From the IMG/VR virus record IMGVR_UViG_648276671_000015: a stretch of DNA of 11,195 bases; one strand, written 5' to 3'. The DNA comes from a virus. Lineage: Duplodnaviria > Heunggongvirae > Uroviricota > Caudoviricetes. Position numbers and translations under genes: made by a program. Shown here one piece after another: positions 1 through 10,262 of this stretch. The number at the start of each line of letters is the position of its first letter. Within the stretch, counting starts at the first letter, position 1. The notes under the pieces were generated by a model that worked only from the letters and a program-made list of their open reading frames with translations, was not told the DNA's origin and did not search any database.

Positions 1-417
1 TTGTTTATATGTTTTAAAGGTTCCATAATCCGGGGCTGGTAATCCGGCATCGTTTGTGTTTCCTCTTTTGATAATGTCAGTGCCACTATTTACCCAGCTT
101 TCATCAAAATAGAAATTAATCGTTGCATCAGTCACAATCGTGGATCTTGACGGTAATCCATGAGCATGATCCTCCGTTGCATACCCCTGAATACTTAAAA
201 TAGAGCGACCTGTATCAATCCCCCGCCCGTCATCCCAGCCACGAATAAATTCACCGCGTAAATCAGGCAATTTATTAGTCGGGTAAGCCTTTGTCAGTTC
301 CGGGTATTCTTCAGCAGAAAAAGCCGCACCATTGCATTTCAGCCAGCCTGTTGGCGGAGTGGCTGAAGGCCACGGAACAGGCACCCCAACGGGTAATGCC
401 GAACCTTCTCCCAAACC
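1..417 (-). CDS. Partial tail-fibre variable (receptor-binding) cassette in silent inverted orientation; reads leftward from the crossover site and runs off the window start
   Basis: Minus-strand frame is open for about 139 codons from the gix-like site to position 1. Translation (...INVGLGEGSALPVGVPVPWPSATPPTGWLKCNGAAFSAEEYPELTKAYPTNKLPDLRGEFIRGWDDGRG...EDHAHG...) carries the tail-collar/tail-fibre motifs (GWLxCNG, YPEL, LPDLRGxF, HxH) seen in Mu S, P1 S and e14 StfE variable parts. It is opposite in strand to the tail operon and abuts the invertase, as for Mu Sv'. Confidence 0.6.
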
Positions 418-431
418 AACGTTTATGAAAA
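406..431. promoter_or_regulatory. gix/hix/pix-type 26-bp recombination (crossover) site for the adjacent serine invertase
   Basis: TTCTCCCAAACC-AA-CGTTTATGAAAA: two imperfect 12-bp inverted half-sites around a central AA, matching about 9/12 per half to the recalled hixL/gix consensus (TTCTTGAAAACC-AA-GGTTTTTGATAA). It lies 56 bp upstream of the invertase start and inside the tail-fibre cassette reading frame. Confidence 0.55.
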
Positions 432-486
432 TGCAGAGATAATGGCTAACTGGCATCATCCCCGGTTTTTATTCAGGGGATTGATC

Positions 487-1053
487 ATGCTTATTGGCTA
501 TGTACGCGTGTCAACAAATGACCAGAACACCGATTTGCAACGTAATGCACTGAACTGCGCGGGATGTGAGCGGATTTTTGAGGATAAAATCAGTGGCACT
601 AAGTCCGACAGACCGGGGCTTAAAAAACTGCTCAGGACACTATCGGCAGGAGACACTCTGGTTGTCTGGAAGCTGGACAGGTTGGGGCGCAGTATGCGGC
701 ATCTTGTTACGCTGATAGAAGAGTTGCGCCAGCGTGGCGTGAATTTCCGAAGCCTGACTGACAGTATTGATACCAGTACCCCAATGGGCCGTTTCTTTTT
801 TCATGTTATGGGTGCTCTGGCTGAAATGGAACGCGAACTGATAGTTGAACGTACCAGGGCAGGGCTGGCTGCAGCTCGTGCCAAAGGCAGAGTAGGTGGA
901 CGCCGTCCTAAGTTGACCACCGAACAGTGGGCACAGATTGGGCGTTTACTTGAGGCCGGAGAATCAAGACAGCGTATTGCACTGATTTTTGATGTAGGCG
1001 TTTCTACTATTTATAGAAAATTTCCGGCAAATAAGAGCAATGAATCTCCCTGA
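487..1053 (+). CDS. pin: Serine DNA invertase of the Pin/Gin/Hin/Cin family (188 aa)
   Basis: Starts MLIGYVRVSTNDQNTDLQ with the catalytic serine in the YVRVSTxDQ motif, then LVVWKLDRLGRS and GRFFFHVMGALAEMERELI, and a C-terminal helix-turn-helix; near-identical in motif layout to e14 PinE / Mu Gin. GGGGA Shine-Dalgarno 8 nt upstream of the ATG at 487. The tracked ORF start at 442 is an upstream in-frame extension. Confidence 0.92.
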   Translation: MLIGYVRVSTNDQNTDLQRNALNCAGCERIFEDKISGTKSDRPGLKKLLRTLSAGDTLVVWKLDRLGRSMRHLVTLIEELRQRGVNFRSLTDSIDTSTPMGRFFFHVMGALAEMERELIVERTRAGLAAARAKGRVGGRRPKLTTEQWAQIGRLLEAGESRQRIALIFDVGVSTIYRKFPANKSNESP

Positions 1054-1101
1054 ATCAGCATTATTTTGATTATCCCTGCAAGCAGACAAATACCGTCATT
1101 T

Positions 1102-1119
1102 TGTGTGAATAACGGCACA
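1102..1119 (+). promoter_or_regulatory. Candidate Ogr-dependent late promoter element (TGT-N12-ACA) for the FI tail operon
   Basis: TGTgtgaataacggcACA has the exact TGT-N12-ACA dyad of P2 late promoters and sits about 75-95 bp upstream of the FI start at 1196, consistent with a position near -55. The -10 element is not clearly identifiable. Confidence 0.4.
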
Positions 1120-1195
1120 ACTGCGCTTAGCTGTTTGTCAGGCACAATCACTTCAACATAGGGCGAAGCCTAATCCAATCAGGAGGTTCGCCACT

Positions 1196-2355
1196 ATGGC
1201 TCAGGATTACCACCACGGGGTGCGCGTTGTTGAAGTCAACGAAGGCACCCGATCCATTACCACGGTGAGCACCGCCATCGTGGGTATGGTCTGCACGGGC
1301 GATGATGCCGATGCAAAAATGTTTCCTCTTAATAAACCCGTGCTGATCACTGATGTGCTGACTGCCAGCGGTAAAGCGGGTGAGTCAGGCACGCTGGCCC
1401 GTTCGCTGGATGCCATCGCTGACCAGGCAAAACCCGTGACCGTTGTTGTGCGTGTGCCGCAGGGTGAAACGGAAGAAGAAACCACGACCAATATCATCGG
1501 CGCAGTGACTGCTGAAGGTAAAAAACAGGCATGAAAGCTCTGTTATCTGCCCAGTCACAGCTCGGCGTTAAACCGCGCATTCTCGGCGTGCCAGGCCATG
1601 ATAACAAAGCCGTTGCGACTGAGTTGCTGAGCGTGGCGCAAAGCCTGCGTGGGTTTGCTTACCTGTCAGCGTATGGCTGCAAGACAGTGCAGGAGGCGAT
1701 CACTTACCGTGAAAACTTCAGTCAGCGTGAAGGAATGCTGATCTGGCCCGACTTTACTGGCTGGGACACGGTGCTGAATGCCGAAGCAACGGCTTATGCC
1801 ACCGCCCGTGCGCTTGGTCTGCGCGCCAAAATTGACGAGCAGACCGGATGGCACAAAAGCCTGTCCAACGTGGGCGTTAACGGTGTCACCGGAATTTCTG
1901 CTGATGTGTTCTGGGATCTGCAGGACCCGGCAACCGATGCAGGTCTGCTGAACCAGAACGACGTCACCACGCTTGTGCGTAAAGACGGTTTCCGCTTCTG
2001 GGGTTCCCGCTGCCTGAGTGATGACCCGCTCTTTGCCTTCGAAAACTACACCCGCACGGCACAGGTGCTGGCGGACACAATGGCAGAAGCGCACATGTGG
2101 GCGGTGGACAAACCGCTGAACCCGTCGCTGGCCCGCGACATTATCGAAGGTATCCGCGCCAAAATGCGCAGCCTGGTCAGTCAGGGCTATCTCATTGGGG
2201 GTGATTGCTGGCTGGACGAGTCGGTGAACGATAAAGACACCCTGAAAGCCGGAAAACTCACCATCGACTACGACTACACGCCAGTGCCGCCACTTGAAAA
2301 TCTGATGCTGCGCCAGCGCATCACCGATCAGTACCTGGTGAATTTCGCCAGCTAG
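1196..2355 (+). pseudogene. P2 gpFI-like contractile tail sheath protein, frame broken by an apparent 1-bp loss in an A6 run (1520-1525); two ORFs 1196-1534 and 1531-2355
   Basis: N-terminal ORF (MAQDYHHGV...) and C-terminal ORF (...KPRILGVPG...GFRFWG...[13 protein letters not shown]) together span a P2 FI-like sheath. Adding one A to the run restores ...[10 protein letters not shown]..., which lines up with the P2 FI junction as I recall it (...GQYTGLKAML...). AGGAGG Shine-Dalgarno at 1181-1186. Confidence 0.8.
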
Positions 2356-2376
2356 GTCAGCGCGTAAGGGGACAAC

Positions 2377-2892
2377 ATGGCTTTACCACGTAAATTAAAA
2401 CATCTGAACTTGTTTAACGACGGGAACAACTGGCAGGGGATCGTTGAGTCGCTGACGCTGCCGAAATTCACCCGCAAATATGAGAAGTATCGCGGCGGCG
2501 GTATGCCGGGGGCGGTGGATGTGGATCTGGGACTGGATAACAGTGCATTGGATACAGAATTTTCCATTGGTGGTACTGAAGTGCTGCTGTTTAAGCAGAT
2601 GGGCAAAGCCACGGTGGATGGCATCCAGTTGCGCTTTACCGGCTCTATCCAGCGTGACGATACCGGAGAAGTGCAGGCCGTGGAGCTTGTGGTGCGTGGA
2701 CGTCACAAAGAAGTGGATTCCGGCGAGTGGAAGACGGGCGAAAGCAACACCACCAAAGTGACCAGTACCAACAGCTACGCGAAGCTGACCATCAATGGTG
2801 AGGTGCTCTATGAAGTGGACCTTATCAACATGGTGGAAATTGTGGACGGTGTGGACCTGATGGAAGCGCACCGCAACGCCCTCGGCCTCTGA
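2377..2892 (+). CDS. P2 gpFII-like tail tube protein (171 aa)
   Basis: Size and position immediately after the sheath gene match P2 FII (about 172 aa); Shine-Dalgarno AAGGGGA upstream; sequence has the conserved tube-protein character (MALPRKLKHLNLFNDGNNWQG...). Confidence 0.85.
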   Translation: MALPRKLKHLNLFNDGNNWQGIVESLTLPKFTRKYEKYRGGGMPGAVDVDLGLDNSALDTEFSIGGTEVLLFKQMGKATVDGIQLRFTGSIQRDDTGEVQAVELVVRGRHKEVDSGEWKTGESNTTKVTSTNSYAKLTINGEVLYEVDLINMVEIVDGVDLMEAHRNALGL

Positions 2893-2903
2893 TATATCTG
2901 AAC

Positions 2904-2921
2904 GGCGCGGGATACCGCGCC
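2904..2921 (+). other. GC-rich stem-loop in the FII-E intergenic region (7-bp stem GGCGCGG/CCGCGCC, loop GATA), no U-tract
   Basis: Perfect inverted repeat read directly from the sequence, 12 nt after the FII stop codon and 26 nt before the E start. Confidence 0.5.
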
Positions 2922-2946
2922 AGAACCCAATTTACAGGACAGCAAA

Positions 2947-3249
2947 ATGAGCGATAAACAGACTGAAAAGACCATTCAACTGGATACCCCCATCAAGCGC
3001 GGTAAAACAGAAATCACCGAAATTGTGCTGCGTAAACCGCAGTCCGGTGCGCTGCGCGGTACACGCCTGCAGGCGATTATGGATATGGATGTGAACGCGA
3101 TGATGACCGTGATCCCCCGCATCTCCAGCCCGGCACTGACTGCACAGGAAATTGCAGAGATGGACCCGGCAGATCTCACTGCCATGTCGGTTGAGGTTGT
3201 CACTTTTTTGTTGAAGAAGTCGGTGCTTGCCGGTTTACCGACAGCCTGA
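2947..3249 (+). CDS. P2 gpE-like tail assembly chaperone (100 aa)
   Basis: Small acidic ORF between tube and tape-measure genes with a TTTTTTG slippery heptamer near its 3' end, as in P2 E and the lambda G analogue; AGGA Shine-Dalgarno 8 nt upstream. Confidence 0.85.
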   Translation: MSDKQTEKTIQLDTPIKRGKTEITEIVLRKPQSGALRGTRLQAIMDMDVNAMMTVIPRISSPALTAQEIAEMDPADLTAMSVEVVTFLLKKSVLAGLPTA

Positions 3250-3383
3250 CGGTTGACGATCTGGTGGCAGATATCGCCACCATTTTTCACTGGCCGCCAT
3301 CCGTTACTGACGTTATGCCGCTGACCGAAGTGCTGGAATGGCGGTATAAAGCGATTCAGAGAAGCGGGGCCAACGATGAGTGA
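2947..3383 (+). CDS. E+E' frameshift fusion product (about 145 aa) made by -1 slippage at 3204-3210
   Basis: The -1 frame after the heptamer reads ...VEEVGACRFTDSLTVDDLVADIATIFHWPPSVTDVMPLTEVLEWRYKAIQRSGANDE and ends overlapping the tape-measure start, the same layout and size as P2 E+E' (about 142 aa). Confidence 0.65.
3204..3210 (+). other. Programmed -1 ribosomal frameshift slippery heptamer T-TTT-TTG (E to E+E')
   Basis: Heptamer is in the X-XXY-YYZ register of the E frame (codons ACT-TTT-TTG = T-F-L); the -1 frame is open from here to a TGA at 3381-3383. Confidence 0.65.
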
Positions 3384-6300
3384 TAACAACCTGCGCCTGC
3401 AGGTCATTCTTAATGCGGTTGACAAACTCACCCGCCCATTCCGTGCTGCACAGGTCAGTTCGAAAGAGCTGGCTGGCGCAATCAGAAACTCCCGTGACGC
3501 ATTAAAGCAACTCAATCAGGCGGGTAACAGCCTGGAAAAATTTCGCAAGCTGCAGGCCGATAACAAGAAGTTAGGCGACAGGCTGAACTATGCCAGACAG
3601 AAGGCTAATTTGCTTAGCTCTGAGCTGGAGGCGATGGAACAACCATCACAACGGCACCTTGTGGCTTTAGGTCGGCAAACACTGGCAGTCCAACGCCTGG
3701 AAGAGCAACAAAAATATTTGCAGAAGCAAACGGCGCTTGTGCGTGCAGAACTGTACCGGGCGGGAATTTCTGCGAAAGATGATGCGGGAGCAACTGCCCG
3801 TTTAGCCCGTGAAACATCACGTTATAACCAGGAATTGTCGAAACAGGAGGTGCGGCTGAAGCGACTGGGGGAAGCTCAGCGCAGGATGAATGCAGCGCGT
3901 GCCAGTTATGCCCGTTCGCTGGAGGTGCGCGATCGTATTGCAGGAGCCGGAGCCACTACCACGGCTGCAGGGTTGGCAATGGGGACGCCAGTGATGGCGG
4001 CAGTAAAAAGCTATACCAGCATAGAAGATGCCATGAAAGGTGTGGCAAAGCAGGTCAATGGTCTGCGTGACGATAATGGCAACCGCACTGCACGTTTTTA
4101 TGAAATGCAGGATGCCATCAAGGCTGCCAGCGAACAGTTGCCGATGGAAAACGGTGCTGTGGACTTCGCTGCACTGGTTGAAGGTGGTGCGCGCATGAAC
4201 GTCGCAAACCCTGACGACAGCTGGGAAGACCAGAAACGTGATCTGCTGGCCTTCGCCAGCACAGCAGCAAAGGCGGCAACAGCCTTTGAGCTGCCAGCGG
4301 ATGAACTGTCAGAAAGTCTGGGGAAAATCGCCCAGCTCTACAAAATCCCTACCCGCAATATTGAACAGCTCGGTGATGCGCTGAACTATCTGGATGATAA
4401 CGCCATGTCGAAAGGGGCAGACATTATTGATGTTATGCAACGTCTGGGCGGTGTGGCGGACCGTCTGGATTATCGTAAAGCGGCGGCGCTGGGTTCCACC
4501 TTTCTGACACTGGGCGCTGCGCCGGAGGTTGCAGCCAGTGCAGCAAACGCGATGGTGCGTGAATTGTCCATTGCCACCATGCAGAGCAAGAGTTTCTTTG
4601 AAGGGATGAATCTGCTGAAACTCAATCCTGAAGTGATTGAAAAGCAGATGACGAAGGATGCGATGGGAACCATCCAGCGCGTGCTGGAGAAGGTGAACGC
4701 ACTGCCGCAGGACAAGCGTCTGTCTGCCATGACCATGTTGTTTGGTAAAGAGTTTGGCGATGACGCGGCGAAACTGGCAAACAACCTGCCGGAACTGCAG
4801 CGCCAGTTAAAGCTGACAGCGGGCAATGATGCGCTCGGTTCCATGCAGAAAGAATCCGACATCAACAAGGACTCACTTTCTGCTCAGTGGTTGCTGGTCA
4901 AAACCGGAGCGCAGAACACCTTCAGCAGCCTGGGCGAAACGCTGCGCCAGCCGCTGATGGATATTCTGTACACGGTGAAAAGCGTCACGGGGGCGTTGCG
5001 TCGCTGGGTGGAAGCTAACCCGGAACTGACGGGCACACTGATGAAAGCGGCGGCTGTTGTGGCTGCGGTTACCGTGGGCCTCGGCACCTTAGCGGTGGTG
5101 TTAGCTGCAGTGCTGGGGCCGCTGGCAGTCATCCGTCTGGGGTTCTCTGTGCTGGGTATCAAAACGTTACCTTCCGTTACGGCAGCAGTAACTCGAACCA
5201 GCAGCGCGTTGTCCTGGCTGGCTGGCGCACCACTGGCACTGCTGCGACGCGGGCTTGCTTCATCCGGCAACGCCGCAGGTTTACTTACTGCGCCGTTGTC
5301 GTCTTTGCGCCGCACGGCATCACTGACGGGAAATGTCCTGAAAACTGTAGCAGGTGCGCAGGTTGCACTTTTGCGGTCTGGATTATCCGGTTTACGTGCT
5401 GTTGCTGTGATGTTTATGAATCCTCTGGCGGTACTGCGCGGTGGACTGGCCGCCGCAGGCACGGTGCTGCGAGTACTGGCATCTGGTCCACTGGCGATGC
5501 TGCGCGTTGCCCTGTATGCCGTATCTGGTCTGTTAGGTGCTCTGCTCAGTCCGATAGGTCTTGTGGTTACTGCACTGGCGGGCGTGGCGCTGGTTGTCTG
5601 GAAATACTGGCAACCCATCACCGCATTTCTTGGTGGCGTGGTGGAAGGATTCAAAGCGGCGGCAGGTCCCGTCAGTGCAGCATTCGAACCGCTTATGCCC
5701 GTGTTCCAGTGGATTGGCGACAAAGTACAGGCGTTGTGGGGCTGGTTTACTGATCTGCTGACGCCCGTTAAGTCGACCTCTGCCGAACTGCAGAGTGCAG
5801 CGGCAATGGGGCGGCGATTCGGGGAGGCACTGGCGGAAGGGCTGAATATGGTCATGCATCCGCTGGACTCCCTGAAATCCGGCGTTTCCTGGTTGCTGGA
5901 GAAGCTCGGCATTGTCAGTAAAGAGGTCGCAAAGGCAAAACTGCCGGAAAGCGTGACGCGTCAGCAACCTGCGACGGTGAATGCAGACGGTAAAGTGATG
6001 ATGCCATCGGGTGGTTTTCCATCATGGGGATATGGCTTTGCGGGGATGTATGGCAGCGGCGGGTATATCCCGCGCGGGCAGTTTGGCATCGTCGGTGAAA
6101 ACGGGCCGGAAATTGTTAACGGCCCGGCAAATGTGACCAGCCGGAGAAATACAGCTGCACTGGCTGCCGTTGTTGCCGGAATGATGGGCGTTGCTGCCGC
6201 GCCAGCAGAGCTTCCACCGTTGCACCCTTTGGCACTTCCCGCGAAAGGTGGAGAAGCAATTGTGAGTCGCGCAGCCACTGTGCCGCTCGTTCAACGGATT

Positions 6301-6453
6301 GAGGCACCGACGCAGATCATCATTCAGACGCAGCCAGGACAAAGTGCGCAGGATATTGCGCGGGAGGTGGCACGCCAGCTTGATGAACGTGAACGCAGGC
6401 TGAAGGCAAAAGCCAGGAGTAACTACAGCGATCAGGGGGGATACGACGCATGA
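3376..6453 (+). CDS. Tail tape measure protein, P2 gpT-like (1025 aa)
   Basis: Very long ORF right after E/E'; coiled-coil-rich N-terminal half, central hydrophobic periodic repeats, Gly-rich C-terminal region; follows the chaperone gene as tape-measure genes always do. Confidence 0.9.
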   Translation: MSDNNLRLQVILNAVDKLTRPFRAAQVSSKELAGAIRNSRDALKQLNQAGNSLEKFRKLQADNKKLGDRLNYARQKANLLSSELEAMEQPSQRHLVALGRQTLAVQRLEEQQKYLQKQTALVRAELYRAGISAKDDAGATARLARETSRYNQELSKQEVRLKRLGEAQRRMNAARASYARSLEVRDRIAGAGATTTAAGLAMGTPVMAAVKSYTSIEDAMKGVAKQVNGLRDDNGNRTARFYEMQDAIKAASEQLPMENGAVDFAALVEGGARMNVANPDDSWEDQKRDLLAFASTAAKAATAFELPADELSESLGKIAQLYKIPTRNIEQLGDALNYLDDNAMSKGADIIDVMQRLGGVADRLDYRKAAALGSTFLTLGAAPEVAASAANAMVRELSIATMQSKSFFEGMNLLKLNPEVIEKQMTKDAMGTIQRVLEKVNALPQDKRLSAMTMLFGKEFGDDAAKLANNLPELQRQLKLTAGNDALGSMQKESDINKDSLSAQWLLVKTGAQNTFSSLGETLRQPLMDILYTVKSVTGALRRWVEANPELTGTLMKAAAVVAAVTVGLGTLAVVLAAVLGPLAVIRLGFSVLGIKTLPSVTAAVTRTSSALSWLAGAPLALLRRGLASSGNAAGLLTAPLSSLRRTASLTGNVLKTVAGAQVALLRSGLSGLRAVAVMFMNPLAVLRGGLAAAGTVLRVLASGPLAMLRVALYAVSGLLGALLSPIGLVVTALAGVALVVWKYWQPITAFLGGVVEGFKAAAGPVSAAFEPLMPVFQWIGDKVQALWGWFTDLLTPVKSTSAELQSAAAMGRRFGEALAEGLNMVMHPLDSLKSGVSWLLEKLGIVSKEVAKAKLPESVTRQQPATVNADGKVMMPSGGFPSWGYGFAGMYGSGGYIPRGQFGIVGENGPEIVNGPANVTSRRNTAALAAVVAGMMGVAAAPAELPPLHPLALPAKGGEAIVSRAATVPLVQRIEAPTQIIIQTQPGQSAQDIAREVARQLDERERRLKAKARSNYSDQGGYDA

Positions 6454-6935
6454 TGATGGTGCTGGGATTGTACGTGTTTATGCTGCGCACCGTTCCGTAT
6501 CAGGAACTGCAGTATCAACGCAGCTGGCGACATGCGGCAAACAGTCGGGTAAACCGACGTCCGTCCACGCAGTTTCTGGGACCGGAAAACGACATGCTGA
6601 CGCTTTCCGGTGTTCTTATGCCGGAGATAACAGGCGGCAGGCTGTCGTTGCTGGCACTGGAGCAGATGGCAGAACAGGGGAAAGCATGGCCCCTGATTGA
6701 AGGCAGCGGCACGATTTACGGCATGTATGTGATTGAGGGACTGAATCAGACTAAAACGGAGTTTTTCCGCGACGGTATGCCGCGCCGGATTGAGTTCACC
6801 CTGTCGCTCAAACGAGTGGATGAATCCCTGTCCGATATGTTCGGTGATCTCAGTGCGCAACTGAATAATCTGCAGGACACGGCAACGTCTGCCTTAAGCG
6901 ATATCAGTAAAACGGTGGGAGGGCTGCTGTCGTGA
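6450..6935 (+). CDS. P2 gpU-like tail protein (161 aa)
   Basis: ATGA overlap with the T stop; GGGGGG Shine-Dalgarno 9 nt upstream; begins MMMVLGLYVFMLRT..., resembling the P2 U N-terminus as recalled (MMLALGMFVF...); size matches P2 U (about 159 aa). Confidence 0.85.
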   Translation: MMMVLGLYVFMLRTVPYQELQYQRSWRHAANSRVNRRPSTQFLGPENDMLTLSGVLMPEITGGRLSLLALEQMAEQGKAWPLIEGSGTIYGMYVIEGLNQTKTEFFRDGMPRRIEFTLSLKRVDESLSDMFGDLSAQLNNLQDTATSALSDISKTVGGLLS

Positions 6936-8032
6936 ATTTCAGCTCTGAACTGCTTAACAAAGGCAACAAAACTCCCGCATTCAGCATCAGTATTGAGGGC
7001 AGGGATATCACCACTGTGCTGGATAACCGCCTGATGAGTTTGACGCTGACGGATAACCGGGGCTTTGAAGCGGACCAGCTTGATCTGGAGCTGGATGACG
7101 CTGACGGAAAAATCGTGCTGCCGCGCCGTGGTGCGGTTATTACGCTGGCGCTGGGCTGGAAGGGGCAGCCGCTTTTCCCGAAAGGGGCATTCACGGTGGA
7201 CGAGATTGAACACACTGGCGCACCGGACCGCCTGACTATCCGGGCGCGAAGTGCTGATTTTCGGGAAACGCTGAATACTCGCCGTGAAAAATCGTGGCAC
7301 AAGACCACTGTCGGGGAAGTGGTGAAGGAAATAGCCGCGCGTCACAAGCTGAAGATGGCACTGGGTAAAGACCTGTCGGATAAGCCCGTGGAACATATAG
7401 ACCAGACTAATGAGAGTGACGGCAGTTTTCTGATGCGGCTGGCGCGCCAGTACGGTGCTATTGCGTCGGTGAAAAATGGCAATCTGTTATTCATTCGGCA
7501 GGGACAGGGTAAAAGCGCCAGCGGTAAACCACTGCCGGTTATCACTATCACACGTAAGGACGGCGACAGTCACCGCTTTACCCTGGCAGATCGCGGAGCT
7601 TACACGGGCGTAATTGCCAGCTGGTTGCATACCCGCGAACCCGCGAAGAAAGAAAGCACCACGGTGAAGCGTAAGCGCAGGACTAAGAAGCAGAAGAAAG
7701 AGCCGGAAGCGAAGCAGGGCGATTACCTGGTGGGTACGGATGAAAACGTGCTGGTACTTAATCGCACCTATGCCAATCGGAGTAACGCCGAACGGGCAGC
7801 GAAAATGCAGTGGGAACGCCTGCAACGCGGCGTTGCGTCATTCTCGCTACAACTGGCGGAAGGTCGGGCAGATCTCTACACGGAAATGCCAGTGAAAGTC
7901 AGTGGTTTTAAACAGCCGATAGATGATGCGGAATGGACCATTACGACTCTGACACATACCGTCAGCCCGGATAACGGTTTTACAACCAGTCTGGAGCTTG
8001 AAGTGAGGATTGATGATTTCGAAATGGAATGA
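6932..8032 (+). CDS. P2 gpD-like tail protein (366 aa), GTG start
   Basis: GTGA start/stop overlap with U; GGAGGG Shine-Dalgarno; motifs (TLTDNRGFEADQLDLELDD, IRARSADFRETLNTRREKSWH, Lys-rich linker, WTIT..H) typical of P2 D. Confidence 0.85.
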   Translation: MNFSSELLNKGNKTPAFSISIEGRDITTVLDNRLMSLTLTDNRGFEADQLDLELDDADGKIVLPRRGAVITLALGWKGQPLFPKGAFTVDEIEHTGAPDRLTIRARSADFRETLNTRREKSWHKTTVGEVVKEIAARHKLKMALGKDLSDKPVEHIDQTNESDGSFLMRLARQYGAIASVKNGNLLFIRQGQGKSASGKPLPVITITRKDGDSHRFTLADRGAYTGVIASWLHTREPAKKESTTVKRKRRTKKQKKEPEAKQGDYLVGTDENVLVLNRTYANRSNAERAAKMQWERLQRGVASFSLQLAEGRADLYTEMPVKVSGFKQPIDDAEWTITTLTHTVSPDNGFTTSLELEVRIDDFEME

Positions 8033-8122
8033 TTCTTCGCAATGGAGAACTTTTAAGTTTGCAAAATGGAATAATGCGGTATCATTATTGTGAATTTAGC
8101 AAAAATGGGGAGAACTCGAAAA

Positions 8123-8341
8123 ATGATGATTTGCCCACTATGTGGAAGTGCCGCCCATACTCGCAGCAGTTTTCAGGTATCTTCATTGACCAAAGAGCGT
8201 TACAACCAGTGCCAGAACATTAACTGCAGCCATACTTTTGTTACCCATGAAACTTTTGTTCGTTCGATTGCAACGCCAAAAGAGTCAAATCCGGTTCAGC
8301 CGCATCCAATGAAATCAGGACAGGTGGCGCTCTCTCTTTGA
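8123..8341 (+). CDS. ogr: Ogr-type zinc-finger late-gene transcriptional activator (72 aa)
   Basis: MMICPLCGSAAHTR...YNQCQNINCSHTF has the C-x2-C...C-x4-C zinc-binding pattern and the size of P2 Ogr (72 aa). The tracked ORF start at 8090 is an upstream extension; the ATG at 8123 has GGGGA about 11 nt upstream. Confidence 0.85.
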   Translation: MMICPLCGSAAHTRSSFQVSSLTKERYNQCQNINCSHTFVTHETFVRSIATPKESNPVQPHPMKSGQVALSL

Positions 8342-8576
8342 CGCTGCCGCCATTTTGTCGCCATCGTTAAAAAACAGTGCTTCTAACATCATGATTTTAA
8401 AAGGCATAAATTTTAGGCAACAAAAAACCCACCAACCTTGAACCGAAATGGCGGGGTTGATGGGCTCCACAAAATGGGGACATCAAAGAAAAGCAGTGGC
8501 ATTAATTAAGACTGATGCCCTGCGGAAAAGTTCTGCGGTTGTGCAAAAAAATTTCATTTTCAGGGCAACTTCAGTT

Positions 8577-10262
8577 TTATCCTAATCCTGGCCATACCAT
8601 GACGATGATTGTCCCTGCCAGCGTCAGCAGGACGTTGGCGATTGCGTAAGTGCCCGCATAGCCCAACGCCGGGATGTTACTGCGAGCTGTATCACTGATG
8701 ATCTCCATTGCCGGCGCGCAGGTGCGTGCGCCCATCATTGCGCCGAACAACAGTGCGCGGTTCATTCGCAATACATAAGCACCGAACAAGAAACAGATAA
8801 CCACGGGCACCAGACTGACAATCAATCCGGCAATCAACATTTGACCGCCAATCGCGCCCAGGCCGTTATTAATACCGCTACCAGCGCTCAGACCAACGCC
8901 TGCCATAAACACCATCAAGCCGAACTCCTTCACCATGCTTAATGCACCCTGCGGAATGTAACCGAAGGTCGGGTGGTTAGCACGCATAAAGCCCAGCATA
9001 ATTCCGGCGAATAACAACCCGGCAGCGTTCCCCATACCGAAACTGAATGTGCTGAACTGGAAGGTGATCATCCCGATCATTAGCCCAATCACAAAGAAGG
9101 CGCAGAATGCCAGCAAGTCAGTGACCTGGCTGTGAATCGAGATAAAGCCGATGCGATCGGCGATGGTTTTTACGCGGCGGGCATCGCCGCTGACTTGTAA
9201 AACGTCACCTTTGTTAAGCACGACGTTGTCATCAATCGGCATCTCAATCTGGCTACGTATGACGCGGTTAAGGAAGCAACCGTGATCGGTCAACTTCAGT
9301 TGTGCCAGGCGTTTGCCAACAGCGTTATGGTTTTTAACGACCACTTCTTCAGTGACGATACGCATGTCGAGAAGGTCACGATCGAAAACTTCTTTGCCAT
9401 TACGGAAACTGGGATCGAGTCGGGCGTGGGCGTCGGGGTAGCCTACCAACGCTATTTCATCGCCCATTTGTAGCACGGCATCACCGTCTGGATTTGCCAG
9501 AATCCCGTTACGCCGAATACGTTCAATGTAGCAGCCGGTTTGTCGATAAATACCCAGTTCACGCAGATTTTTGCCGTCGGTCCAGGCTACCAGCTCCGGG
9601 CCGACGCGGTAGGCGCGGATCACCGGCAAATAAACTTTACGGTTGGCATCTGTGTCCAGGCCACGTTCGCGGGCGATTTGCTGGGCGCTGGTCTGTAAGT
9701 CCTGATGCTGCAATTTCGGCAAGTAACGCGCACCAACAATCAAACTCACCAGACCGATTAAATAGGTTAAGGCATACCCGAGGCTCAGATTATCCAGTGC
9801 CAGTGAGAGCTGCCTGCTTTCCATGCCGGAATGACGCAGTGTATCGCCAGCACCGACCAAAACCGGTGTTGACGTCATAGAGCCTGCTAACATACCGGCC
9901 GTCAGGCCAATATCCCAGCCAAACAGCTTACCTAACCCTAAGGCGATCACCAGCGCACTGCCAACCATCACCAGTGCTAACATTAGGTAATTTTTCCCAT
10001 CGCGAAAAAAAATGGAAAAAAAGTTCGGTCCGGCTTCGACCCCGACGCAGAAAATAAACAGCATAAAGCCAAGATTAAGCGCGTCGGTGTTAATGCTGAA
10101 ATGTTGTTGGCCTAATAACAGCGATACGACTAAAACGCCAATGGAATTACCCAGTTGGATCGAACCAAGTCGTAATTTCCCGAGACATAGCCCAAGCGCG
10201 AGGACCACAAATAATAACAGAATGTAATTCCCATTTAACAATTCGGCGACGTTTATATTCAC
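8577..10262 (-). CDS. ybjL: YbjL, putative AAE-family transporter (561 aa; two transmembrane halves flanking cytoplasmic TrkA-C-like domains), GTG start
   Basis: Full-length 561-aa membrane protein matching E. coli YbjL in length and sequence as I recall it; gene neighbourhood (ybjL-ybjM-grxA) is the conserved E. coli arrangement. Confidence 0.9.

What the first reader, a model, noticed from the sequence alone, without database searches (positions are those of the whole stretch)
1..1053. Mu-G-segment-like invertible tail-fibre switch (silent cassette, gix-like site, Pin invertase) inside a P2-type tail module
The sequence shows a minus-strand tail-fibre variable cassette with no start codon of its own, reading directly out of a 26-bp site (406-431) that resembles gix/hix crossover sites, followed 56 bp later by an intact serine invertase. 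This is the layout of the Mu G and P1 C host-range switches. Canonical P2 has tail-fibre assembly and Z/fun genes at this position and no invertase. The second crossover site and the expressed cassette should lie to the left, outside the window.
Basis: partly seen in the sequence, partly recalled or inferred. Interest (0 to 1): 0.6.

Follow-up and report, generated by a model that had tools for sequence, protein, structure and literature searches.

The report
Pin-type invertible tail-fibre switch, P2-like prophage
This is the right-hand end of a well-known DNA-flipping switch (the E. coli e14 Pin type, a relative of the phage Mu G segment) that lets a P2-like prophage swap the tip of its tail fibre; it is real but ordinary and already described.

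Summary
Window 1-405 (minus strand) encodes a tail-fibre C-terminal cassette with a Collar domain. It is 95.5% identical to e14 StfE. Bases 406-431 match the e14 crossover site next to pinE at 26 of 26 positions. Bases 487-1053 encode an intact 188-aa serine invertase, 87% identical to PinE and 75% to Gin, with Ser9 present.

The window is a slice of a draft E. coli scaffold (GCA_000176655.2). On that scaffold the predicted second site lies to the left, inverted, inside the P2 H-type fibre gene. The H gene reads through it into the same cassette, so the assembly holds both junctions.

All 11 related loci have the same pair of sites, and near relatives carry the interior in opposite orientations. 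Complete E. coli genomes show the cassette joined to the invertase side (194) or to the H gene (37). An EPEC P2-like locus with a 25/26 site and the same cassette has been shown experimentally to flip (Goldberg 2014).

One detail is wrong. An in-frame ATG-ATG (454-459) lies just beyond the site, as in e14 stfE.

The exact invertase protein is indexed in 9692 blocks of the public assembly collection. Verdict: already known, low interest.

The parts
1..405 (-). Pin-proximal ('silent') tail-fibre C-terminal cassette, StfE-like with a Collar domain. It is incomplete in the window. The true sequence continues about 80 bp further left to ...RPRNIAFNYIVRAA-stop.
   Evidence: Pfam Collar E = 3.7e-15. 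95.5% protein identity to e14 StfE and 97.8% to the E. coli E6 homologue. Left extension recovered from L012 6150-6239.
406..431 (+). Right crossover site (pix/gix/hix type). Two imperfect 12-bp half-sites, TTCTCCCAAACC and CGTTTATGAAAA, flank the central dinucleotide AA (418-419). The inner half-site encodes the shared GLGE junction of the fibre.
   Evidence: 26/26 identical to the e14 site next to pinE and 17/26 to Mu gixR. Unique in the window, 0 expected by chance. An inverted partner, TTCTC(A/G)CATACC-TT-GGTTTGGGAGAA, is present in all 12 loci. Flip breakpoints between relatives fall within the sites.
432..486 (.). Spacer between the site and the invertase gene. It presumably holds the invertase promoter and ribosome-binding site (GGGG, about 476-479). 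On the minus strand it contains an in-frame ATG-ATG (459-454) that extends the cassette ORF, homologous to the annotated start of e14 stfE.
   Evidence: Translation. Alignment with e14 and Mu shows the conserved block TGGCAT(C/G)AT and the Shine-Dalgarno region. Gene callers start the ORF here. The consensus scan found no sigma-70 promoter in this spacer.
487..1053 (+). Pin-type small serine DNA invertase, 188 aa, intact. It has catalytic Ser9 and a C-terminal HTH_7 domain.
   Evidence: Pfam Resolvase 2.2e-53 and HTH_7 1.4e-15. 87% identical to PinE and 75% to Gin. Best solved-structure hit is the Gin catalytic domain, 3uj3, E = 8e-93. The exact protein is indexed in 9692 blocks of public assemblies.
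509..571 (.). Candidate recombinational (Fis) enhancer inside the 5' end of the invertase gene. Two Fis-consensus-like 15-mers (509-523 and 557-571) have centres 48 bp apart. The first lies about 98 bp from the centre of the site.
   Evidence: My own consensus scan. The same two positions score in e14 pinE and Mu gin. Spacing compares with the 47 bp reported for hin (PMC3798978). This is only a candidate, because conservation here is confounded by coding constraint.
1196..8341 (+). Context: P2-type late tail operon. Sheath FI (1196-2355, split by a 1-base frameshift), tube FII, E/E', tape measure T, U, D, then ogr (8123-8341).
   Evidence: Pfam hits. Gene calls on L012. Colinear with P2 FI-FII-E-T-U-D.

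Best explanation
Window 1-1053 is the right-hand end of a Pin-type (e14 P-segment / Mu G-segment class) invertible tail-fibre switch. It is carried by a P2-like (Peduoviridae) prophage integrated next to ybjL in E. coli.

Proposed mechanism:
- The invertase (487-1053) binds as dimers to two 26-bp sites in inverted orientation. One is at 406-431. Its partner lies inside the P2 H-type fibre gene, to the left of the window.
- With a Fis-bound enhancer in the 5' end of its own gene, the invertase cuts both sites at the central AA/TT dinucleotide and rotates the strands, flipping the DNA between the sites.
- The sites lie inside the coding sequence and encode the shared ...GLGE... junction. Each flip therefore fuses the constant N-terminal part of the fibre to one or the other C-terminal receptor-binding cassette, and brings that cassette's assembly chaperone gene into the transcribed orientation.
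- In the orientation captured by the window, the StfE-like Collar cassette faces the invertase and is unfused (silent).

Shown here: the parts, their identity to e14, the partner site, the in-frame read-through, both junctions in the source assembly, and both orientations among genomes.

Inferred from established knowledge of Hin, Gin, Cin and Pin: the chemistry, Fis dependence, and the host-range consequence.
For: - Site is 26/26 identical to the e14 site.
- Invertase is 87% identical to PinE and 75% to Gin, with Ser9 present.
- The residues reported as unique to Fis/enhancer-dependent invertases are present. Hin K47/R48/K51 correspond to K46/K47/R50 here, and Hin Q151/R154/L155 to Q150/R153/L154 (sequence, numbering checked on the Gin alignments, criteria from PMC3798978).
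- Cassette is 95.5% identical to StfE.
- The source scaffold L012 has the H gene (from 2578) reading through the inverted left site (3614-3639) into the same cassette. There are no substitutions outside the outer half-site, and all 8 indels lie in homopolymer runs.
- All 12 loci have the inverted site pair 1.5-3.4 kb apart.
- L005 versus L011, and L004, L001 and L003 versus L008, are colinear outside the sites and inverted between them.
- In complete E. coli genomes, 194 carry the cassette-site-invertase junction and 37 carry the H-site-cassette junction.
- The EPEC E2348/69 P2-like locus 2977580-2979467 was shown by sequencing to coexist in both orientations. It has a 25/26 site and this cassette at 96.4% identity.
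- Named phages carry the same module, for example Escherichia phage Cartapus, annotated 'Mu phage Gin invertase homolog'.
Against: - No read-level or experimental evidence for this particular strain was available.
- On the source scaffold the segment is interrupted by an IS3-family element directly after the cassette, where the chaperone gene should be, and by an 866-N gap. The second cassette and both chaperone genes could not be seen. The switch may no longer yield two functional fibres there.
- The sheath gene carries a 1-base deletion in an A-run. The prophage may be defective, or this may be a sequencing error.
- The Fis enhancer is only a candidate.
- The two junctions in the assembly could reflect a real inverted duplication of the cassette rather than a mixed population.
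Confidence: 0.9

Rival explanations
1. Decayed relic. The parts are those of a Pin switch, but in this strain it no longer does its job. An IS element has replaced the chaperone gene and perhaps the second cassette, and the prophage is defective (sheath frameshift). Flipping may still occur, but it has no effect on host range.
For: - An IS3-family element sits directly after the cassette stop codon, where relatives have tfaE.
- No H gene was called on L012.
- The sheath is split at an A6 run where a relative has A7.
- L010 also carries an IS inside its segment.
Against: - The invertase and both sites are intact.
- The sheath frameshift and all eight indels at the contig end lie in homopolymer runs (the H-cassette copy shows 8 such indels). 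This is typical of sequencing error in this draft.
- The assembly holds both junctions, which suggests the segment still flips.
Confidence: 0.35
2. The cassette next to the invertase is not silent. It is translated from its own ATG (459 or 456) as a short free receptor-binding protein, as claimed for e14 StfE/StfE2. It would act on the cell surface, for example by blocking adsorption of other phages. The switch would then toggle a defence phenotype as well as, or instead of, virion host range.
For: - An in-frame ATG-ATG lies 22-27 nt beyond the site and is conserved with e14 stfE. Mu also has an in-frame ATG there.
- Kirigo et al. 2025 report that StfE2, produced from a plasmid, blocks T2 adsorption, and that P-segment inversion confers T2 resistance (PMC12529663).
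- The window cassette is 95.5% identical to StfE.
Against: - In that paper StfE itself, which is the form present in the window's orientation, was 'not effective'.
- No promoter was found reading leftward into the ORF.
- The only ribosome-binding-like sequence (GGGG) abuts the ATG.
- The 9-codon leader is not conserved at protein level between the window and e14 (MMPVSHYLC versus MMPFACYFF).
- The conserved ATG can be explained as the reverse complement of the conserved TGGCAT block upstream of the invertase gene.
- Nine codons without a stop is expected by chance about 65% of the time (own estimate).
Confidence: 0.12
3. Assembly artefact reading. The apparent 'both orientations' on the source scaffold comes from scaffolding errors or a true inverted duplication of the cassette, so it says nothing about activity in this strain.
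For: - The scaffold shows clear artefacts. A 319-bp exact duplicate spans a 67-N gap, and there is an 866-N gap.
- The H-side copy sits at a contig end and has 8 homopolymer errors.
Against: - The two copies differ only in the outer half-site. The switch point lies at the centre of the 26-bp site, as expected for site-specific exchange.
- Relatives carry two different cassettes, not two copies of one.
- Even if this reading is right, it removes only one line of evidence. The comparative and published evidence for the system remains.
Confidence: 0.3

Closest known systems
e14 P segment with PinE (E. coli K-12 cryptic prophage e14: stfP-tfaP / tfaE-stfE, pinE)
   Same: - The right crossover site is identical at 26/26.
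- The left site matches at 23/26 (by eye, from the sequences).
- The invertase is 87% identical.
- The invertase-proximal cassette is 95.5% identical to StfE.
- Order and spacing are the same: cassette, site, about 55 bp, invertase.
- The in-frame ATG-ATG beyond the site is the same.
- DNA identity is 87% over window 1-960.
   Different: - The carrier is a P2-like myovirus prophage. The constant part is a P2 H-type fibre with Phage_tail_fib, and the sheath operon lies downstream. e14 is a lambdoid remnant with mcrA downstream.
- The invertase has a different C-terminal tail (…PANKSNESP versus …PAGDK).
Invertible tail-fibre loci of P2-like prophages of EPEC E2348/69 (Goldberg et al. 2014), and P2-like phages such as Escherichia phage Cartapus, 500465-1 and pro483
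   Same: - Same architecture in the same genomic position, between the H/G fibre genes and sheath FI.
- The EPEC locus 2977580-2979467 has a 25/26 site and this cassette at 96.4% identity, and was shown to coexist in both orientations.
- Cartapus is 97.5% identical over window 405-1200.
   Different: - The EPEC invertases are only 80-83% identical.
- That EPEC locus is a remnant lacking the H constant part.
- The other EPEC locus has three repeats and four variants.
- Cassette content differs between phages.
Phage Mu G segment with Gin (and P1 C segment with Cin)
   Same: - Same logic. The constant fibre part lies outside the segment. Two opposed cassette-plus-chaperone pairs lie inside. The 26-bp sites are inside the coding sequence. 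The invertase gene sits just outside the right site on the same strand.
- Gin is 75% identical and the site matches at 17/26.
   Different: - The cassettes are unrelated at BLASTP level (no hit to Mu S or S').
- The segment is shorter, about 1.5-1.9 kb in most relatives versus 3 kb.
- The host phage family differs.
- P1 was not examined here.
Salmonella Hin / hix flagellar switch
   Same: Same invertase family and the same site design (26 bp, AA core). The residues reported to contact Fis and the enhancer are conserved.
   Different: Hin lies inside its segment and switches a promoter, not a coding-sequence fusion. No Hin sequence was available in the collections, so the comparison rests on the paper and on my own recollection of the Hin sequence.

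Membership tests
Fis/enhancer-dependent small serine DNA invertases (Hin/Gin/Cin/Pin) | N-terminal resolvase-type catalytic domain with the serine nucleophile at position 9/10 | tested here: met
   Pfam Resolvase E = 2.2e-53. Ser9 lies in MLIGYVRVST and aligns with Gin residue 9, which is Ala in the 3uj3 mutant and Ser in 4m6f.
Fis/enhancer-dependent small serine DNA invertases (Hin/Gin/Cin/Pin) | C-terminal helix-turn-helix DNA-binding domain, total length about 185-195 aa | tested here: met
   HTH_7 E = 1.4e-15 at residues 138-181. The protein is 188 aa.
Fis/enhancer-dependent small serine DNA invertases (Hin/Gin/Cin/Pin) | Residues conserved in invertases but not resolvases: basic residues at Hin 47/48/51, and Gln151/Arg154/Leu155 | tested here: met
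   K46, K47, R50 and Q150, R153, L154 in the window protein (numbering is Hin minus 1). Sequence, numbering checked on the Gin alignments, criteria from PMC3798978.
Fis/enhancer-dependent small serine DNA invertases (Hin/Gin/Cin/Pin) | Two 26-bp crossover sites in inverted orientation with the same central dinucleotide | tested here: met
   Right site at 406-431 with AA core. Left site at L012 3614-3639 with TT core on the + strand, which is AA when inverted. The same pair is present in 11/11 relatives.
Fis/enhancer-dependent small serine DNA invertases (Hin/Gin/Cin/Pin) | Cis-acting enhancer with two Fis sites about 47-48 bp apart in the 5' part of the invertase gene | tested here: inconclusive
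   Fis-like 15-mers at 509-523 and 557-571 have centres 48 bp apart, at the same positions as in e14 pinE and Mu gin. The Fis consensus is weak and the region is coding, so this cannot be distinguished from protein-level conservation.
Fis/enhancer-dependent small serine DNA invertases (Hin/Gin/Cin/Pin) | Catalyses inversion of the segment between the sites | not testable with these tools
   Only indirect evidence is available. Both junctions occur in the source assembly. Opposite orientations occur in relatives carrying the identical invertase protein. Both junction types occur in complete genomes. A homologous EPEC locus flips experimentally.
Invertible tail-fibre host-range switch (Mu G / P1 C / e14 P type) | Constant N-terminal fibre part outside the segment that reads in frame through a crossover site | tested here: met
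   The L012 H ORF from 2578 reads through ...GLLTYLGLGE... into the cassette. Full-length fused fibres of 463-507 aa are called in L003-L005 and L007-L011.
Invertible tail-fibre host-range switch (Mu G / P1 C / e14 P type) | Two alternative C-terminal cassettes in opposite orientation, each followed by its own fibre-assembly (Caudo_TAP) gene | tested here: inconclusive
   Met in relatives. For example, L004 and L008 carry Gp53-like_C and Collar cassettes with opposed Caudo_TAP genes, and so does E. coli E6. On the source scaffold an IS element and an 866-N gap hide or replace this part.
Invertible tail-fibre host-range switch (Mu G / P1 C / e14 P type) | The two orientations give virions with different host range | not testable with these tools
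   Inferred from Mu and P1 (established knowledge, and the introduction of PMC12529663).
P2-like phages (Peduoviridae) tail module | Gene order V-W-J-I-H-(G), then FI-FII-E/E'-T-U-D-ogr | tested here: met
   Pfam hits for sheath, tube, TAC_7, tape measure, GpU and GPD. L012 and its relatives show V, W, J and I upstream and GpE and Ogr_Delta downstream. The order is colinear with P2, where fun(Z) occupies the invertase position.

The most novel reading that the evidence does not exclude
The invertase-proximal cassette ORF (459 to beyond base 1, 179 aa when reconstructed) is translated from its own conserved ATG as a free receptor-binding-domain protein. Flipping would then toggle not only the virion fibre tip but also a lysogen surface or defence phenotype, such as blocking adsorption of competing phages, as recently claimed for e14 StfE2. 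The site is identical to that of e14, so this invertase and e14 PinE (and PinQ/PinR) would also cross-flip each other's segments within one cell.
Probability: 0.12. Interest if true: 0.45.

Novelty: already known. Interest (0 to 1): 0.12.

Why it matters
It matters little as a discovery. Invertible tail-fibre segments driven by Pin/Gin-type invertases have been textbook cases since the 1980s. Their presence in P2-like prophages is annotated in named phages and has been measured experimentally.

It has three practical uses:
- Annotation. The 'phage tail protein' called next to the invertase is the unfused alternative fibre tip, not an independent gene.
- Assembly. Such loci break draft assemblies, as this scaffold shows.
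- Phage host-range engineering and prophage typing.

The only open biological angle is whether the invertase-proximal cassette is ever expressed on its own.

Tried and rejected
- Fis enhancer. I tried to settle it by a consensus scan and by looking for published site lists. The scan gives a plausible conserved pair of sites but is not decisive.\n- Papers not held. The Hengen 1997 Fis-site paper, a PMC id I tried from memory for R. C. Johnson's review of serine invertases (PMC4384473), the Kutsukake 2006 Fels-2 Fin paper and the Mehta 2004 e14 paper are not held in the library. Several other calls failed only because a search term was too short.\n- Promoters. A sigma-70 consensus scan found no promoter between the site and the invertase gene, and none reading into the cassette. 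The terminator-like hairpin at 448-467 is not above chance.\n- Site search. A regular-expression search for sites in the loci found nothing because the pattern was too strict. A Hamming-distance search replaced it.\n- Mu cassettes. I considered whether the cassette is related to Mu S or S'. There was no BLASTP hit at E < 1e-3, so 'Mu-G-segment-like' holds for the logic and the invertase but not for the cassette.\n- Resolvase reading. I considered a resolvase or transposon-associated recombinase. I rejected it because of 75-87% identity to Gin and PinE, the invertase-specific residues, and the absence of any res-type site or transposon context.\n- Host species. I considered that the window was not E. 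coli, because the best prophage identity was 96.8%. The chromosomal flank (ybjL-ybjM-grxA) is 99.7% identical to E. coli.

Full report
**What is in the window**

On the minus strand, one reading frame is open from base 468 down to base 1.

The part encoded by 432-1 carries a phage tail Collar domain (PF07484, E = 3.7e-15).

Bases 406-431 read TTCTCCCAAACCAACGTTTATGAAAA. This sequence occurs once in the window, with none expected in shuffled sequence.

From 487 to 1053 on the plus strand lies an intact 188-aa protein. It has a resolvase-type catalytic domain (E = 2.2e-53) and an HTH_7 domain. The mechanical ORF list starts it at ATG 442.

Downstream lie P2-type sheath, tube, E, tape measure, U and D genes and ogr. 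Beyond them are the E. coli chromosomal genes ybjL-ybjM-grxA, at 99.7% identity to E. coli.

**Where the window comes from, and what lies to its left**

The exact tape-measure protein occurs on one public contig, GL884339.1 of assembly GCA_000176655.2. The window is bases 6626-17820 of the stretch fetched from it, locus L012.

Window base 1 follows a 67-N scaffold gap. The 319 bp on each side of that gap are identical (L012 6238-6556 = 6624-6942). The gap is therefore an overlap artefact, and the true left continuation of the window is L012 6239 downwards.

Read that way, the cassette ORF ends 27 codons further on, at ...ETRPRNIAFNYIVRAA-stop. The whole 179-aa ORF is 95.5% identical to e14 StfE.

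Immediately after the stop comes an IS3-family element, in the place where relatives have the chaperone gene tfaE. An 866-N gap follows.

**The predicted second site exists**

At L012 3614-3639 lies TTCTCACATACCTTGGTTTGGGAGAA, the inverted partner of the window site.

A P2 H-type fibre gene starts at L012 2578. It reads in frame through this site (...GLLTYLGLGE...) into the same StfE-like cassette.

I aligned this H-side copy to the reverse complement of window 26-431. The only substitutions lie in the outer half of the site. The cassette itself shows no substitutions and 8 single-base indels, all in homopolymer runs.

So one cassette sequence is joined, exactly at the centre of the 26-bp site, either to the fibre gene or to the invertase side. 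That is what a culture containing both orientations would give. A real inverted duplication or a scaffolding error cannot be excluded without the reads.

**Relatives**

The exact invertase protein is indexed in 9692 blocks of the public assembly collection.

The ten loci fetched with it, plus E. coli E6, all show the same layout: V-W-J-I, H, then the segment, then the invertase, then sheath FI.

All of them have the inverted site pair, 1.5-3.4 kb apart. The inner half-site GGTTTGGGAGAA is near-invariant across them.

Most relatives carry two different cassettes (for example Collar and Gp53-like_C), each followed by its own Caudo_TAP chaperone gene, arranged head to head.

L005 versus L011, and L004, L001 and L003 versus L008, are colinear outside the sites and reverse-complemented between them. 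The breakpoints lie within the sites.

Homology of many other phages and loci to the window starts at base 405, the edge of the site.

In complete E. coli genomes, the window's junction (cassette-site-invertase) is covered at 80% or more in 194 genomes. A constructed flipped junction (H constant part-site-cassette) is covered in 37, where it is annotated as one 'tail-collar fiber' gene.

**Comparison with known systems**

- **e14 of E. coli K-12.** This is the closest relative. Window 1-960 aligns at 87% to stfE-site-pinE. The right site is identical at 26/26. The invertase is 87% identical.
- **Phage Mu.** Mu shares the logic. Gin is 75% identical and the site matches at 17/26. Its cassettes are unrelated.
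- **Solved structures.** The best match is the Gin catalytic domain.
- **Invertase-specific residues.** The residues that McLean et al. 2013 report as specific to Fis/enhancer-dependent invertases are all present (checked against the alignments).
- **Possible enhancer.** Two Fis-like 15-mers at 509-523 and 557-571, 48 bp apart, lie at the same positions in e14 pinE and Mu gin. This is only a candidate enhancer.
- **Phage P2.**

**It is not new**

Named Peduoviridae phages carry the same module. Escherichia phage Cartapus is 97.5% identical over 405-1200 and is annotated 'Mu phage Gin invertase homolog'. Others include 500465-1, pro483 and a series of Klebsiella phages.

Goldberg et al. 2014 showed by sequencing that invertible loci in two P2-like prophages of EPEC E2348/69 coexist in both orientations within clonal cultures, and confirmed the four variants of the three-repeat locus by PCR.

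One of those loci (2977580-2979467) has a site differing at one base from the window's. It carries the window's cassette at 96.4% identity, at the far end of the segment.

The cassette frame does not stop at the site. It runs 9 more codons to an in-frame ATG-ATG at 459-454. This is homologous to the annotated start of e14 stfE, and gene callers use it.

Kirigo et al. 2025 claim that the e14 ORF starting at this ATG, after inversion (StfE2), blocks adsorption of phage T2. That leaves a minority reading in which the invertase-proximal cassette is not fully silent.

Against that reading:
- StfE, the form present in the window's orientation, was not effective in that study.
- No promoter was found reading into the ORF.
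- The short leader is not conserved at protein level.
- The conserved ATG can be explained as the reverse complement of a conserved TGGCAT block upstream of the invertase gene.

**Verdict**

The element is a Pin-type invertible tail-fibre switch in a P2-like prophage. In the source strain it is possibly damaged by an IS element. The element is already known, and interest is low.

Noticed in passing
window 1 (L012 6557-6623 and 6238-6556): The window starts just after a 67-N scaffold gap. Window 1-317 is an exact duplicate of the sequence on the other side of the gap, so this is an overlap artefact of the draft assembly. The true left neighbour of window base 1 is L012 6239.
   Followed up: yes
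window 1519-1525 (sheath gene FI, 1196-2355): The sheath gene is split into ORFs of 112 and 274 aa by a 1-base deletion in an A-run (A6 here, A7 in relative L005). This is either a sequencing error of the draft or a real inactivating mutation of the prophage.
   Followed up: partly
L012 4887-6100 (left of the window): An IS3-family insertion sequence (HTH_Tnp_1 plus rve ORFs) sits inside the invertible segment, directly after the StfE-like cassette where relatives have tfaE. L010 also has an IS inside its segment, at a different place.
   Followed up: partly
window 454-459, minus strand: An in-frame ATG-ATG lies just outside the crossover site and extends the 'silent' cassette ORF. It is conserved in e14 (the stfE start), and an in-frame ATG is also present beyond gixR in Mu. 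It may simply be the reverse complement of a conserved TGGCAT block upstream of the invertase gene.
   Followed up: partly
window 1102-1119: TGTGTGAATAACGGCACA fits the TGT-N12-ACA motif I recall as the Ogr/Delta activator binding site of P2-family late promoters. It lies about 80 bp upstream of the sheath start, at the position where P2 has its annotated pF activator site.
   Followed up: partly
L002 4538-4563 and 4618-4643: This relative has two site-like sequences in the same orientation 80 bp apart on the left side, the second being TTCGCTTCTACCTTGGTTTAGGAGAA. It also has a longer segment of 3.4 kb. It could be a multi-site (shufflon-like) variant like the three-repeat EPEC locus.
   Followed up: no
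L001 5200-5330 (E. coli E6): The H fibre gene of this complete genome is frameshifted about 180 bp before the left site. It is annotated as two genes, a 285-aa tail protein plus a 'gp53-like domain' protein.
   Followed up: no
L018 3744-4580 (EPEC E2348/69): In this locus, which has been shown experimentally to flip, the left end of the segment abuts a truncated integrase pseudogene instead of an H constant part. The StfE-like cassette there has no fibre gene to fuse to, yet the segment still inverts.
   Followed up: no
L005 880-2761 and L011 924-2806: Some relatives carry an inserted minus-strand gene pair between the tail genes S and V: an AAA_15/AAA_21 (SMC_N-type) ATPase plus an HNH-domain protein. 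L004 has a DUF6216 gene there. This looks like a cargo or defence hotspot.
   Followed up: no
window 8342-8576: The prophage ends after ogr and directly abuts the chromosomal ybjL gene (8577-10262, minus strand). The attachment-site core was not mapped.
   Followed up: no
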